From: Candidatus Stygibacter australis
GTDB lineage: Bacteria; Cloacimonadota; Cloacimonadia; Cloacimonadales; TCS61
Direction: 5' to 3'
NCBI GenBank assembly: GCA_030765845.1
Contig: JAVCDJ010000028.1
Location: 1 to 63,289, forward strand
DNA: 63,289 nucleotides
The translations under genes and the position numbers were made by a program. Below the pieces are notes generated by a model. The model had not been told where the DNA came from. It saw nothing but the letters and a program-made list of their open reading frames with translations, and did no database searches. This document shows, piece by piece, positions 18,600 to 22,199 of this stretch (its first letter is position 1; every line of letters begins with the position of its first letter).

Positions 18600-18836
18600 T
18601 CAGGTTGAGAAGATGAGCAGTAATGCGATTACCAGAGAATAAATTCCCGTAGATTCTGATACAGCCTGACCTACAAGCATTGTTCTGGTTATCAAGCTGG
18701 CGTGTTCGGGGGCTCTGGCAATACCTTCACAGGCTTTTCCTGCCACAAAACCTTCACCGATACCAGGACCCAGTGCTCCTATTCCCATAGCGATACCTGC
18801 ACCTAAAAGAGCAGCGGCTCTTGCTAATTGATCCAT
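18600..18836 (-). CDS. atpE: ATP synthase c subunit, single hairpin, Na+-type (E28/E61-S-T...Y)
   Basis: GPGIGEG and [19 protein letters not shown] motifs. Confidence 0.96.
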
Positions 18837-18861: not shown

Positions 18862-19623
18862 CTATTTCACCGAAAAAATTAATAAAAATGATACTACCAG
18901 CGCATAGATAGCAGTTGATTGTGATACTGCAGCACCCAGGAACATAGTTCTCATAATATGTGATTTTTGACCCGGGAATTTGCCCACCATTCTGCAGCCC
19001 TTTCCTGCCACATTACCGATACCAGCACCAGGTCCAATAGTTCCAATACCAATTGCCAGTCCGGCACCTAAGTATGCTACTGATCTCAAAAGGATATGTC
19101 CCGCACTAAGATTGGGGATACTGTCCTGTAATGGTGTAGAATATAATAATAATAGGCTAACAAGCAGAGCAAATATACTGGAAGTCTGAGCTAAGGCCTG
19201 ACCGATCAGCATATATCCAAGAATGGAATTTGATTGCCGAGGCATTCTACTTATAGCATGACATGCCTGTCCCCCAGCGTATCCTGCTCCGGTAACTGGT
19301 CCCAGAGAACCAATTCCCACGGCAATTCCTGCTGATAATAAGGCAGAAAATCTGAACCAGCCACCTTCAACAACATCAAATCCACCAAACATAAGCAAAA
19401 GGGCTATAACCAGGGAGAAAATTCCACCTGTCTCTGTAACTGCCTGTCCTATGAACATTGCTCTAAATAATTTATCATGTGAATCTGGTTGTCTCATAAT
19501 ACCATAAGAAGCAGCGCTGGCGATATATCCGACACCGATCCCGCAAGTTATAGAGGCTATGCCTACGCTGAGTGCAGCTCCCAGAAAGGCAGCTATTTGA
19601 ATCGTTTCCATTGTAAAAATCAT
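18862..19623 (-). CDS. atpE: triple-hairpin (6-TM) ATP synthase c subunit
   Basis: Three tandem c-subunit repeats: GQAVTETGGIF, GQALAQTSSIF, GAAVSQSTAIY. Confidence 0.92.
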   Translation of the reverse strand: MIFTMETIQIAAFLGAALSVGIASITCGIGVGYIASAASYGIMRQPDSHDKLFRAMFIGQAVTETGGIFSLVIALLLMFGGFDVVEGGWFRFSALLSAGIAVGIGSLGPVTGAGYAGGQACHAISRMPRQSNSILGYMLIGQALAQTSSIFALLVSLLLLYSTPLQDSIPNLSAGHILLRSVAYLGAGLAIGIGTIGPGAGIGNVAGKGCRMVGKFPGQKSHIMRTMFLGAAVSQSTAIYALVVSFLLIFSVK

Positions 19624-19630
19624 ATCTTAG

Positions 19631-20914
19631 TTACTCCGCAATTTCTACACCGATATATGTCAGTGCCAGCATGGTAAAAACAAATGCCTGCACAGTTCCA
19701 ACAAATATTCCAAAGAATAAATTAAGACCCACAGGTAATACTATATAACTCACTAAGGAAGAAACAACAACGATGATTATGGCTCCTCCCAGGATATTAC
19801 CAAATAATCTGAACGAAATTGAAATTACCTTGGAAAATTCACTCACAATGTCTAAGGCAGCCAGGGGGTTTTTTATGGGATTAAGATAGTGTTCAAAATG
19901 ACCCCATAATCCTTTTACTCTGATCGCAGTGAAATGAACTACTAAAATAACTATAATTCCCATTCCCAGAGGGACATTGATATTTCTGGTTGGTTCCATA
20001 AACCCGGGAATAGGTATCAATCCCACCATATTGCAAATCCAGATAAATAAAAATATTGTAACAATATAGGGTGTGAAATTTAATCTATCCTGACCGAGAG
20101 TGTCAGAAACGAAATCCTCAAAGGTTTTATAGATCATTTCCATGATCAATTGTCCCTTAGAGGGTTTACCGGAAAGACTCTTTTTCAGGAAGATTATTAA
20201 TAAAAGGAATATTATATCGACAATCAGTAACATTCTTATAAGATAAAAAGCGCCCAAAGCAGAAGTTTCTCCAAATAATGACCTGCATATCTGATATGCC
20301 TTGTAGCTGCCGTAAATTCTAGGTAAATGCTCTTGTCTGGATAAAATGGTTTCAGGAATAATGCCTTCAATTACAAGTCGATTTAAGCGGGAAATATCCA
20401 GTGGTGTCAAACCAGGAGTTTTTTTCTTTAATTCAGAAAGATAATACTCTGTTTCGGTAGTATGCTCTTTGATATAACCCTTAAATCCTGCTTCGTAAAA
20501 TTTTGGATTGCTGATCACCTTTTTATTTAATTCATTAATCAATTCAGTTTTTATGCTGGCATTCCAGGTTGTATCAGAGTCTCTCAAATGATTTTTTATG
20601 CCAGTATTAAAAACGCTAAAAGCTTTAGACATAACAGGATTGTCACTTGCAAGGTACTCAGTGAATTTCTGGAAATCAGGAATTTCATATAAATGAAGCC
20701 GGGTATTTTTGATCAAAAACTCGTCACGTTGGAAATCCTCAGTAATTTTATCCTGAAGATCATAGTGACTCGCTTTATTTCTGATTACCAGCTTTCCTGA
20801 ATCAATACCGATCTCTAATTCTTTTTTAAATCCAGAACTTATCAGCACTAAAGCAACTTCAATTACTATAAAAATGAGAAAAACCCATCTCAGGTTTCCC
20901 TTCTTTTTAGCCAT
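19631..20914 (-). CDS. atpB: ATP synthase F0 a subunit with a large N-terminal soluble insert
   Basis: PSKGQLIMEMIY, PTRNINVP, SFRLFGNILGG (essential Arg), GTVQAFVFTML; 427 aa. Confidence 0.95.
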   Translation of the reverse strand: MAKKKGNLRWVFLIFIVIEVALVLISSGFKKELEIGIDSGKLVIRNKASHYDLQDKITEDFQRDEFLIKNTRLHLYEIPDFQKFTEYLASDNPVMSKAFSVFNTGIKNHLRDSDTTWNASIKTELINELNKKVISNPKFYEAGFKGYIKEHTTETEYYLSELKKKTPGLTPLDISRLNRLVIEGIIPETILSRQEHLPRIYGSYKAYQICRSLFGETSALGAFYLIRMLLIVDIIFLLLIIFLKKSLSGKPSKGQLIMEMIYKTFEDFVSDTLGQDRLNFTPYIVTIFLFIWICNMVGLIPIPGFMEPTRNINVPLGMGIIVILVVHFTAIRVKGLWGHFEHYLNPIKNPLAALDIVSEFSKVISISFRLFGNILGGAIIIVVVSSLVSYIVLPVGLNLFFGIFVGTVQAFVFTMLALTYIGVEIAE

Positions 20915-20916
20915 TT

Positions 20917-21303
20917 TTACTCCTGTTCCTCACTGTCTTTGGGAAACCTGATTAGATATAAGATAAATATCCAAATCTGCCCGGACAGTAAGCCGACACC
21001 GAATATAATAATATTCAGGCTTAAAAATTTCACTGCCAAAATGGAACCAGCAATAAGGATCAAATATCTGAAATTAAAATCCTTATATGCCATTAATTTC
21101 GCTTTGTTTTCACCCGAATAGAGATTCTTCTCTATTTTAAGCGACATTAACCAGACATTGATGAGACTCAGAAAAGCACCGCAAATCCAGCTCAAACTCT
21201 GTCTTGGCATCAGGGGCAAAAAAATTAAAGCAATGATGTTTGTCAAGCTAATTAATCTAAGTAAAACAACTATAAATTCTTTATTCTTTAACACTTGATT
21301 CAC
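20917..21303 (-). CDS. atpI: ATP synthase protein I
   Basis: ~4 TM, 128 aa, FRYLILIAG; immediately upstream of atpB. Confidence 0.75.
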   Translation of the reverse strand: MNQVLKNKEFIVVLLRLISLTNIIALIFLPLMPRQSLSWICGAFLSLINVWLMSLKIEKNLYSGENKAKLMAYKDFNFRYLILIAGSILAVKFLSLNIIIFGVGLLSGQIWIFILYLIRFPKDSEEQE

Positions 21304-21562
21304 TTTTTGAAATAATCTTTTTCAGCAATCTGTAGCTTCCAAGCATTCCTGTAAATACACCCATAATGATACCTGCTGCCTGCCATATTTGTCCAATCCC
21401 TAAAATTTTCGTAAGGTATCTTGACAAAAAGAACCAGATCAAGATGCTGATGATCATAACAAACCCTAATTGACCAGCCAGGGCAAGATATTTGATGAAA
21501 CCGTAATCTTTCATACTCATTTCTGCTAATATCTGCTGCTTCTGAATATCTTTATTCTTCAT
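21281..21562 (-). CDS. atpZ: AtpZ/AtpI-family (ATPase gene 1) protein
   Basis: Two TM helices; GQLGFVMIISILI...GIIMGVFTG pattern; first gene of the atp cluster. Confidence 0.7.
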   Translation of the reverse strand: MKNKDIQKQQILAEMSMKDYGFIKYLALAGQLGFVMIISILIWFFLSRYLTKILGIGQIWQAAGIIMGVFTGMLGSYRLLKKIISKSESSVKE

Positions 21563-22199
21563 TATTTCCTGTATTTAATAATCTGAATGGATCGATAAAC
21601 TGTCCATTTAGCTGGATTGAAAAATGCAAGTGTGGTCCCGTGCTGAATCCAGTTGAACCAACTGTGCCAATGACGTCTCCTTTTTCGGCAAAACTGCCAG
21701 AAGCAGCAAAAATCCGATCAAGATGTCCATAAAAGGTATAATAGCCGTTAAAATGCTCAATAATAATCAGGTTTCCAAAATATTCATCCTGCTTAAAAAC
21801 TTCTAGTTTTCCTGCGGCACTTGCTATCACCTCTGTTCCACGGGGTGCTGCCAGGTCAATTCCGGGATGTTTGTCCGAAAACTTCTGACTGACTACTGTT
21901 TTAACAGACAAAGGTCTCAGGTCAGGGATAAATCTATTCTCTATCGTTATGCTGTCTGGTTGATAATTGCCACCATTTTGCTCTTTAAGATAATTTGCCA
22001 GGATATTTTTTAAATCTTCAGTATTATCCTTAACAGGTATTATCCCATCATCTATGGGATTCTGTTCAGAGAAAGAAGCTGTGTTTGGCAGTTCGGATTT
22101 TATGGTTACCAACTCATTTTTGATCTTATAATAATCAATCAGGAAAATTATCCCGATTATCAGAATAATAATAGTCAAATAGCAGCAGGTTTTGTTCAT
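21552..22199 (-). CDS. M23 family metallopeptidase, N-terminally anchored
   Basis: HPGIDLAAPRGT, YGHL, STGPHLHF. Confidence 0.9.
   Translation of the reverse strand: MNKTCCYLTIIILIIGIIFLIDYYKIKNELVTIKSELPNTASFSEQNPIDDGIIPVKDNTEDLKNILANYLKEQNGGNYQPDSITIENRFIPDLRPLSVKTVVSQKFSDKHPGIDLAAPRGTEVIASAAGKLEVFKQDEYFGNLIIIEHFNGYYTFYGHLDRIFAASGSFAEKGDVIGTVGSTGFSTGPHLHFSIQLNGQFIDPFRLLNTGNNEE

What the first reader, a model, noticed from the sequence alone, without database searches (positions are those of the whole stretch)
20255..20827. ATP synthase a subunit carries a ~190-aa extracytoplasmic domain
Seen: AtpB is 427 aa. A basic N terminus and one TM (res ~10-27) are followed by ~190 hydrophilic residues (30-220) before the conventional core, which includes the essential Arg in SFRLFGN. 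By the positive-inside rule the insert faces the periplasm, at the entry side of the ion half-channel. Part of it (ELINELNKKVISNPKFY...LTPLDISRLNRLVIEGIIPETI) reads like a small helical module I recall as an unannotated insert in unrelated membrane proteins; that recollection is unverified. Inference: it may gate ion access, stabilise passage over the carboxylate-free hairpins of the triple c subunit, or dock a partner.
Basis: partly seen in the sequence, partly recalled or inferred. Interest (0 to 1): 0.66.

Follow-up and report, generated by a model that had tools for sequence, protein, structure and literature searches.

The report
Folded periplasmic domain on ATP-synthase subunit a
The membrane stator (a) subunit of this uncultured Cloacimonadota bacterium's only ATP synthase has an extra membrane helix and a confidently predicted, all-helical 125-residue outer domain with no known relative; only a few related genera have the domain, it does not track the unusual triple rotor gene, and it is probably a dispensable accessory.

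Summary
Observation confirmed. AtpB (window 19631-20914, minus strand) is 427 aa. The Pfam ATP-synt_A core covers only residues 228-421 and includes the essential Arg369 (SFRLFGN). Before the core lie a basic tail, one extra TM helix (TM0, 10-27) and about 195 hydrophilic residues.

These residues are two things:
- **A phylum-wide scaffold.** It has TM0 with a conserved mid-helix E/Q, a beta-hairpin, an acidic EDFQxDE motif and a pre-aH1 helix. It occurs in every Cloacimonadota family sampled.
- **A roughly 125-aa insert (residues 68-196).** It sits in the scaffold's variable loop and occurs in 9 of about 110 genomes that have the F-type enzyme.

The triple c plus single c pair is in all of those genomes, so the insert does not co-vary with it.

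AlphaFold2 models the insert confidently (pLDDT 86-96) as a compact helical bundle. It has no Pfam, NCBIfam, PDB-sequence or Foldseek match. Its only credible relatives among 1.84 billion representative proteins are AtpB proteins with this same extension.

The insert evolves fast (27% identity against 69% for the core), but dN is far below dS. Its net charge varies between lineages, and it was probably lost several times.

Best reading: an orphan periplasmic accessory domain that caps or stabilises Fo near the ion inlet. New variant of a known kind; moderate interest.

The parts
19631..20914 (-). atpB, F-type ATP synthase subunit a, 427 aa, long form
   Evidence: ORF and translation. PF00119 at residues 228-421. 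TIGR01131 above its cut-off. It is the only PF00119 gene in the genome.
20834..20914 (-). Residues 1-27: basic cytoplasmic tail (MAKKKGNLR) plus the extra TM helix TM0 (10-27). TM0 has a conserved mid-helix Glu19, which is E or Q throughout the phylum. It is probably an uncleaved signal anchor.
   Evidence: Hydropathy peak over residues 5-31. AF2 helix 8-25. E19 is at least 90% conserved in A2, and E or Q is present in all families examined.
20714..20833 (-). Residues 28-67: periplasmic beta-hairpin (31-48) and acidic motif YDLQDKITEDFQRDEF. This is part of the phylum-wide scaffold.
   Evidence: Shared with the roughly 300-aa short forms. Present in families f1, f2, f4, f6-f8 and f11-f16. 53% mean identity among diverse long forms. 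The hairpin is predicted with low confidence, pLDDT 51-61.
20327..20713 (-). Residues 68-196: lineage-restricted all-alpha insert of about seven helices, with a conserved RLNR...E helix (R176, L177, N178, R179, E183).
   Evidence: Absent from short forms, which close the gap with 5-10 residues. AF2 pLDDT is 83-91 in the full model and 86-96 in the domain model, pTM 0.73. No family or fold match. Invariant residues are listed.
20249..20326 (-). Residues 197-222: conserved pre-aH1 segment (LPRIYGSYKAY...FGE), an amphipathic helix leading into aH1. This is part of the scaffold.
   Evidence: Shared with short forms of most families and missing in f14-f16. AF2 helix 204-214.
19634..20248 (-). Residues 223-427: canonical subunit-a core (aH1 to aH6), with the essential Arg369 at bases 19808-19810.
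   Evidence: Pfam and NCBIfam matches. Foldseek of the full model hits chloroplast, Chloroflexus and E. coli a subunits. R369 is invariant.
18862..19623 (-). Triple-hairpin c subunit (253 aa). Ion-site residues are E, Q and Q in hairpins 1, 2 and 3. Given as context; it is not part of the insert.
   Evidence: Three PF00137 stretches. Column analysis.
18600..18836 (-). Single c subunit (78 aa). Context.
   Evidence: PF00137.
20917..21562 (-). atpI (20917-21303) and the atpZ-like gene (21281-21562), directly upstream of atpB. Context.
   Evidence: PF03899 and PF09527.

Best explanation
SHOWN. This is the stator a subunit of the organism's single F-type ATP synthase. All Cloacimonadota a subunits examined carry an N-terminal scaffold not found elsewhere:
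- a basic tail;
- an extra TM helix (TM0) with a conserved buried E/Q;
- a short beta-hairpin;
- an acidic EEFQPD-type motif;
- in most families, an amphipathic helix that leads into aH1.

The loop between the motif and that helix varies in length. It is 5-10 aa in most lineages and about 35 aa longer in family f6. In the window's genus and five other genera it holds a roughly 125-aa insert that AlphaFold2 models confidently as a compact all-alpha domain. The insert has a single origin, because it is homologous and sits at the same position in all long forms. It is absent from about 92% of relatives that have the same rotor genes. It has no detectable relative in sequence or fold.

INFERRED. 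TM0 acts as a signal anchor that exports the scaffold and the insert, so both lie on the periplasmic face of Fo beside aH1, on the side where the coupling ion enters. The ion is probably Na+. The insert most likely works as a passive structural accessory: a cap or buttress that covers the periplasmic surface of the a subunit and the a/c interface and stabilises or shields it. It is probably not an essential part of ion translocation. Most relatives lack it, and its surface charge is not conserved.
For: - Core identity and a single atpB copy.
- The alignment of 16 long and 5 short forms places the insert at residues 68-196 between conserved flanks.
- Distribution: 9 long forms among about 110 genomes with this AtpB, out of 201 sampled.
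- The scaffold is present in families f1, f2, f4, f6-f8 and f11-f16.
- All named database hits to the scaffold, and all 10 genome loci found with its motif, are Cloacimonadota.
- AF2 domain model: pTM 0.73, insert pLDDT 86-96; full model 83-91 over the insert.
- No Pfam, NCBIfam or PDB-sequence hit. Foldseek best E is 1.3 against PDB and 0.21 against BFVD.
- Exhaustive phmmer found only proteins with this AtpB N terminus, plus one chance hit.
- Selection, window against G125: dN/dS is about 0.13 in the insert and 0.03 in the core.
- Mean identity is 27% in the insert and 69% in the core. Insert pI ranges from 4.5 to 9.5.
- Patchy distribution: 4 state changes on the AtpB core tree and 3 on the triple-c tree. 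The triple-c data reject the long-form genomes as one clade (p-AU 0.004).
- Precedent for a lineage-specific a-subunit appendage capping a half-channel: the C-terminal tail of Pseudomonas aeruginosa subunit a (PMC12796488).
Against: - No experiment or complex model places the insert relative to the channel. The AF2 full model has a poor core (pLDDT below 50), so the packing of domain against core is unknown.
- Purifying selection and a fold kept at 27% identity argue for some function, but they do not say which.
- The invariant RLNR...E helix could be a specific binding or gating surface rather than a structural one.
- dS is near saturation, so the dN/dS values are rough.
- TM0 could be a cleaved signal peptide (possible ISS|G site). 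That would change the scaffold picture but not the periplasmic location.
- The AtpB core tree does not reject the long forms as one clade (p 0.705). The number of losses, and so the argument that the insert is dispensable, is therefore uncertain.
Confidence: 0.5

Rival explanations
1. Gate or regulator of ion access. The domain would open and close the periplasmic half-channel mouth, for example to block wasteful ATP-driven ion pumping or ion leak.
For: The domain lies on the inlet side (topology). It has a small set of invariant charged residues: R176, R179, E154 and E183. A regulatory cap on the other half-channel is documented in P. aeruginosa (PMC12796488).
Against: About 92% of relatives with the same rotor and the same scaffold lack it. 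Nothing in the sequence suggests a sensor or switch: there are no Cys or His clusters, and net charge varies between lineages.
Confidence: 0.15
2. Adaptation to the heteromeric rotor. The insert would stabilise the a/c interface while the carboxylate-free hairpins of the triple c pass by.
For: Every insert-bearing genome also has the triple c. The inter-hairpin linkers of the triple c are periplasmic, on the same side as the insert (established c-subunit topology).
Against: The triple c is phylum-wide, so the co-occurrence is trivial. Genomes with the same EQQ or EQE patterns, and with more blank hairpins (QQE, QQQ, GQQ), manage with the short form. Long forms occur with two different patterns, EQQ and EQE.
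Confidence: 0.05
3. Docking or oligomerisation platform. The helical domain would bind a periplasmic or envelope partner, or a second ATP synthase, to localise or cluster the enzyme.
For: It is a compact folded domain with one conserved helix surface (RLNR...E), while the rest diverges freely. That pattern is typical of a single conserved interface.
Against: No partner gene is conserved next to the long-form operons. Gene order is the same as in short-form genomes, apart from an unrelated bactofilin-like gene. No known binding motif was found.
Confidence: 0.15
4. A nearly neutral passenger. A fragment inserted into a permissive loop would be kept only because a misfolded periplasmic domain is harmful, and it would add nothing to the enzyme's function.
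For: The loop is permissive; f6 has an independent insertion of about 35 aa there. The insert evolves fastest of all segments. Its distribution is patchy, with probable repeated loss.
Against: dN is far below dS. The fold, the length (123-141 aa) and a handful of invariant residues are kept across lineages that are only about 27% identical.
Confidence: 0.14
5. Annotation or assembly artefact: a wrong start codon, or a fusion of two genes.
For: None found.
Against: The reading frame is continuous. The N terminus is conserved. The same architecture appears in 9 genomes and in further independent contigs.
Confidence: 0.01

Closest known systems
Canonical bacterial F-type subunit a (E. coli AtpB, e.g. 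PDB 6OQR; chloroplast AtpI, 6VM4)
   Same: The core from aH1 to aH6, the essential Arg in the R-L-F-G-N motif, and the position in the atpI-atpB-atpE operon. Foldseek of the full model hits these chains. Pfam and TIGR01131 scores are above their cut-offs.
   Different: The known proteins have 220-270 residues and a short periplasmic N terminus. They have no extra TM helix. This protein adds TM0 and about 195 periplasmic residues, including a folded domain.
Short-form Cloacimonadota AtpB (about 275-336 aa; e.g. Ca. Tenebribacter, P0050, P0015)
   Same: The same TM0 with a buried E/Q, the hairpin, the EEFQPD-type motif, the pre-aH1 helix and the core. The operon is the same, with triple c plus single c.
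   Different: These proteins lack residues 68-196, and a loop of 5-10 residues closes the gap.
Pseudomonas aeruginosa subunit a C-terminal tail, which caps the cytoplasmic half-channel around a metal ion (PMC12796488)
   Same: It is a lineage-specific appendage of subunit a that sits over a half-channel mouth. Changing it alters the balance of synthesis and hydrolysis, yet it is absent from related enzymes.
   Different: It lies on the opposite side of the membrane. It is a short tail with a metal site rather than a 125-aa folded domain. There is no sequence relationship. The resemblance is one of concept only and was not tested here.
His-rich or acidic periplasmic N-terminal tails on a subunits of other uncultured lineages
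   Same: A signal anchor plus an N-terminal extension predicted to lie beside the ion inlet.
   Different: Those tails are described as disordered, low-complexity and His-rich. This one is a folded helical domain without His or Cys enrichment. The notes are unchecked AI notes and I did not verify them.

Membership tests
F-type ATP synthase subunit a (Pfam PF00119 / TIGR01131) | Profile match above the curated cut-off | tested here: met
   PF00119 scores 159.7 bits against a cut-off of 33.9, over residues 228-421. TIGR01131 scores 125.6 bits against 102.6.
F-type ATP synthase subunit a (Pfam PF00119 / TIGR01131) | Essential stator Arg in the penultimate long helix (the R-L-x-x-N motif) | tested here: met
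   R369 lies in SFRLFGN. R369, L370, F371, G372 and N373 are invariant in 100 sequences.
F-type ATP synthase subunit a (Pfam PF00119 / TIGR01131) | Operon context with c, b, delta and alpha subunit genes | tested here: met
   The gene order is atpZ-atpI-atpB-c3-c1-b-delta-alpha on the minus strand.
N-ATPase (alternate F1Fo) subunit a, TIGR03306 | Profile match above the curated cut-off | tested here: not met
   89.3 bits against a cut-off of 302.1.
Long AtpB families with N-terminal extensions in NCBIfam (NF009953 / PRK13419, NF009952 / PRK13417) | Match above the cut-off that includes the N-terminal 100-115 profile positions | tested here: not met
   NF009953 scores 77-79 bits against a cut-off of 460 and aligns only profile positions 115-331. 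NF009952 scores 21.7 bits against 531. Neither model passed its cut-off in any control genome, so I could not establish which taxa these models represent.
   I could not fetch a Bacteroidota AtpB sequence for a direct comparison. The indirect evidence is negative. NCBIfam and Pfam give no hit for residues 28-222 or for a short-form N terminus. The exhaustive phmmer search and the word search return only Cloacimonadota-type proteins. The motif scan of 185,579 species genomes returns only Cloacimonadota.
Any described protein domain family (for the insert, residues 68-196) | A significant profile or fold match | tested here: not met
   The best Pfam hit has E 0.074 (DsrD, 13.8 bits against a cut-off of 24.2). 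NCBIfam gives none. The best PDB profile search hit has E 0.16. The best Foldseek hit has E 1.3 against PDB (TM at most 0.19) and E 0.21 against BFVD. AlphaFold DB was not available.

The most novel reading that the evidence does not exclude
In this reading the whole N-terminal apparatus is an extra stator element, not described for any rotary ATPase. It comprises TM0 with its strictly conserved mid-membrane Glu/Gln, the periplasmic hairpin and acidic motif and, in the long forms, the folded helical domain. TM0 would pack at the a/c-ring interface and contribute its buried E/Q to the Na+ entry path, or to the handling of the blank (Gln) rotor positions. The helical domain would form a vestibule over the inlet. 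The phylum-wide co-occurrence of the scaffold with the triple c rotor would then be functional rather than merely inherited.
Probability: 0.1. Interest if true: 0.8.

Novelty: new variant of a known kind. Interest (0 to 1): 0.42.

Why it matters
To my knowledge, and in the literature searches I ran, bacterial F-type ATP synthases studied so far have a bare periplasmic face on subunit a. A folded periplasmic domain and an extra TM helix on the stator would be a new structural elaboration of Fo. In this phylum it comes with another oddity, a three-hairpin c subunit whose hairpins are partly blank.

Long and short forms exist in close relatives with otherwise identical operons. That is a natural deletion series for asking what, if anything, a periplasmic cap does for ion entry, ring stability or regulation in a probable Na+-coupled enzyme of energy-limited anaerobes.

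The insert is also a confidently predicted orphan fold.

The practical limits are real. The organisms are uncultured, the insert is confined to a few genera, and the evidence suggests that it is dispensable.

Tried and rejected
1. **Module shared with unrelated membrane proteins: rejected.** The exhaustive phmmer search found 8 hits. Seven carry this AtpB N-terminal extension. The eighth (P0014, 2896 aa, 25% identity, 9 repeated stretches) looks like a eukaryotic giant repeat protein with ankyrin/death-domain-like parts. I treat it as a low-complexity chance match.

2. **Link between the insert and a carboxylate in hairpin 1 of the triple c: rejected.** This looked promising after the first few loci. 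All 8 long forms scored (G092 could not be, because its triple c lies on another contig) do have Glu in hairpin 1, but so do 47 of the 92 short forms.

3. **NF009953 and NF009952 as proxies for a 'Bacteroidota-type' AtpB: inconclusive.** Neither model passed its cut-off in any control genome.

4. **Foldseek with the full-length model: uninformative for the insert.** It recovered only a-subunit cores, so I re-predicted the domain alone.

5. **The extra 35 aa or so in family f6 as a remnant of the long insert: no support.** hhalign aligned only the hairpin and the motif.

7. **Extra operon genes specific to long-form genomes: none.** The only difference seen upstream is a bactofilin-like gene in short-form genomes.

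8. **Literature searches.** They found no description of an a-subunit periplasmic domain or extra TM helix. Two searches targeted a-subunit extensions in general and one targeted Cloacimonadota ATP synthase. [quoted passage not shown]

Full report
**1. What is there**

The minus-strand ORF 19631-20914 encodes a 427-aa protein. It lies in an atp operon with this gene order:
- atpZ-like gene (PF09527);
- atpI (PF03899);
- atpB;
- a 253-aa triple-hairpin c subunit;
- a 78-aa single c subunit;
- b, delta and alpha subunits.

The operon sits just downstream of parA, parB and an M23 peptidase gene.

Pfam ATP-synt_A covers only residues 228-421 (159.7 bits). TIGR01131 covers 225-422, above its cut-off. 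The stator Arg is R369 in SFRLFGN. This is the only subunit-a gene in the 3.8-Mb genome.

The finding's coordinates, 20255-20827, are exactly codons 30-220. The named homologues are Ca. Stygibacter frigidus and Cloacimonetes, so the organism belongs to the Cloacimonadota.

**2. Anatomy of the extra 227 residues**

Aligning 16 long forms with 5 short forms splits the N-terminal part into four pieces:
1. Residues 1-27 are a basic tail (4 K/R in 9 residues) and a hydrophobic helix, TM0. TM0 spans residues 10-27, and its Kyte-Doolittle peak is 2.68.
2. Residues 28-67 are a predicted beta-hairpin and the acidic motif YDLQDKITEDFQRDEF.
3. Residues 68-196 are present only in long forms.
4. Residues 197-222 (LPRIYGSYKAY...FGE) lead into aH1.

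Pieces 1, 2 and 4 are shared with the short forms of about 300 aa. In those, a loop of 5-10 residues replaces piece 3.

I read the N termini of 17 further genomes from the other families. The same scaffold is present in f2, f4, f6, f7, f8 and f11-f16. It consists of the tail, TM0, a hairpin of the hIGxxPxTGKF type and an EEFQPD-type motif. The pre-aH1 helix is missing in f14-f16. TM0 always carries a Glu or Gln in mid-helix.

Family f6 has about 35 extra residues at the same loop. They show no detectable similarity to the long insert.

**3. Topology**

In every solved bacterial F-type enzyme the N-terminal end of aH1 faces the periplasm (established knowledge; E. coli and related structures were retrieved by Foldseek). 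Here aH1 is followed by the Lys-rich loop KKSLSGKPSKG, and TM0 is preceded by MAKKKGNLR. Both ends therefore agree on an N-in, TM0, out, aH1-in arrangement, which puts residues 28-222 in the periplasm.

A large exported N-terminal segment needs an export signal, and TM0 supplies one. TM0 has 18 hydrophobic residues, is conserved, and has a conserved buried E/Q. These features favour an uncleaved anchor over a cleaved signal peptide, but this was not tested.

**4. Distribution and the triple c question**

I searched 201 Cloacimonadota genomes:
- 113 have an AtpB match. Three of these are weak, divergent matches in family f3.
- The triple c plus single c pair occurs in the same genomes.
- Full-length matches to residues 28-222 occur in only 9 genomes. 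These are the window's genus (4 of 4), three other genera of the same family (G043, G069, G092) and one genus each in two other families (G070, G088).

The insert is therefore present in about 8% of the genomes that carry the triple c.

I also scored the ion-site residue of each of the three hairpins in 100 genomes. Long forms have EQQ or EQE. Short forms have EQE (35), QQE (31), EEE (9), GQQ (5), QQQ (5), GQE (4) and EQQ (3). The insert does not go with any particular pattern of blank hairpins. Lineages with more blank hairpins than this one use the short form.

**5. History**

All long forms share the insertion point, and the inserts are homologous (E from 1e-14 to 1e-89), so the insert arose once.
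- On a tree of the AtpB core, the long forms fall into three neighbouring groups mixed with short forms. That gives 4 state changes, but an AU test does not reject a single clade (p 0.705).
- The adjacent triple-c gene does reject a single clade for these genomes (p-AU 0.004, 3 changes).
- The long-form genomes also sit in three different families.

The most economical reading is one early gain followed by several losses. Exchange of atpB between lineages cannot be excluded. Either way, the enzyme works without the insert in most lineages.

**6. The insert as a protein**

Two AlphaFold2 runs were made:
- The 21-sequence alignment gave a poor core (pLDDT below 50, because the alignment is shallow). 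Over the insert, however, pLDDT was 83-91.
- A domain-only run (residues 28-222, 16 sequences) gave pTM 0.73 and pLDDT 86-96 over the insert. The model is a compact bundle of about seven helices. The hairpin was modelled with low confidence.

No relative was found by any method:

| Search | Best result |
|---|---|
| Foldseek, PDB | E 1.3, TM at most 0.19 |
| Foldseek, BFVD | E 0.21 |
| Pfam | E 0.074 |
| NCBIfam | no hit |
| Profile against PDB sequences | E 0.16 |
| phmmer, 1.84 billion representatives | 8 hits |

Seven of the eight phmmer hits carry this AtpB N terminus. The eighth is a 2896-aa repeat protein that I regard as a chance match. The genome has no paralogue of the insert.

The insert is the fastest-evolving part of the protein. 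Mean pairwise identity is 27% in the insert, 53% in the hairpin and motif, and 69% in the core. Its net charge swings from -11 to +6, with pI between 4.5 and 9.5. Between the window and a congener, dN/dS is about 0.13 in the insert and 0.03 in the core, although dS is near saturation.

The invariant residues are few. They are F84, E154, R176 and R179, with L177, N178 and E183 nearly invariant. Most of them lie on the last helix, just before the chain returns to the membrane.

**7. Mechanism**

What is shown:
- The insert is an exported position on the stator.
- It has a confidently predicted, conserved fold.
- It is under purifying selection.
- Its electrostatics are not conserved.
- It has one conserved helix.
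- It is absent from most relatives.

From this I infer a passive accessory. The domain would sit on the periplasmic face of subunit a, anchored through the RLNR...E helix, and would cover or buttress the a/c interface and the inlet region. It would be useful but not required.

The variable charge argues against a cation-collecting antenna. The distribution argues against a role tied to the triple c.

Three alternatives remain open: a gate, a docking or clustering surface, and a nearly neutral passenger in a permissive loop. Each has its own test in the rivals section. A lineage-specific a-subunit tail that caps the other half-channel and tunes activity in P. aeruginosa shows that such appendages exist (PMC12796488).

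**8. Comparison with what is known, and novelty**

The core is an ordinary F-type a subunit. It is not an N-ATPase a subunit (TIGR03306 scores far below its cut-off). No AtpB family model aligns to the N-terminal part.

All named hits to the scaffold are Cloacimonadota, and so are all 10 loci recovered by a motif scan of 185,579 species genomes. A direct comparison with Bacteroidota AtpB was not possible, so that membership test is formally inconclusive, with negative indirect evidence.

[quoted passage not shown] My searches found no description of an extra TM helix or a folded periplasmic domain on a bacterial a subunit.

Earlier notes of this scan report N-terminal periplasmic tails on a subunits in other phyla, but those are described as disordered and His-rich (unchecked).

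I class this finding as a new variant of a known kind. The insert is an orphan fold, and the scaffold with its buried E/Q in TM0 is arguably the more interesting phylum-level feature.

**9. Verdict**

The location is right. The proposed link to the triple c and the recalled shared module are not supported. Interest is moderate at 0.42. The feature is real, undescribed and structurally distinctive. However, it is confined to a few uncultured genera, is probably dispensable, and has no tested function.

Noticed in passing
window 20858-20860 (codon of Glu19 in TM0); also L133-L149 and alignments A2, A6: The extra TM helix of every Cloacimonadota a subunit examined has a Glu or Gln in mid-helix. 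It is E in f1, f2, f6, f8, f12 and f14-f16, Q in f4, f11 and f13, and either one in f7. A buried polar residue at about the depth of the rotor ion site, on an extra stator helix, has no explanation so far.
   Followed up: partly
window 18862-19623 and L034-L132 (alignment A3): The ion-site residues of the three hairpins of the triple c vary across the phylum. The counts in 100 genomes are EQE 38, QQE 31, EEE 9, EQQ 8, GQQ 5, QQQ 5 and GQE 4. In the QQQ and GQQ lineages the triple c has no carboxylate at all. These lineages are the small complete genomes of about 1.6 Mb in family f13, plus G010, G057, G177 and G183.
   Followed up: partly
L135 (G025) and L136 (G045), family f6: AtpB has an independent insertion of about 35 aa at the same loop between the EEFQPD-type motif and the pre-aH1 helix. 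hhalign finds no similarity to the 125-aa insert.
   Followed up: yes
L007 (G092:C101) and L029 (G092:C105): In this long-form genome atpZ-atpI-atpB is followed by an unrelated 127-aa membrane protein, and the triple c gene lies on a different contig. The atp operon appears to be split there.
   Followed up: partly
L012, L013, L017, L018, upstream of atpZ; compare window 21552-22199: Short-form genomes have a 132-141-aa gene between the M23 peptidase gene and atpZ. I recognised it as bactofilin-like by eye and did not scan it. The window and L006 lack it.
   Followed up: no
window 18600-18836 (single c subunit): The single c has [11 protein letters not shown]...VSESTGIYS. From my memory of the Ilyobacter tartaricus c subunit, there is a Glu where the Na+-binding Gln32 sits, in addition to the E-S-T-x-x-Y motif. 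That would be a two-carboxylate Na+ site. I did not check this against a reference sequence.
   Followed up: no
P0093 (450 aa) and P0011 (280 aa): Further long-form variants exist in metagenomes. One is 450 aa on a 565-kb contig, and one is truncated at a contig end.
   Followed up: no
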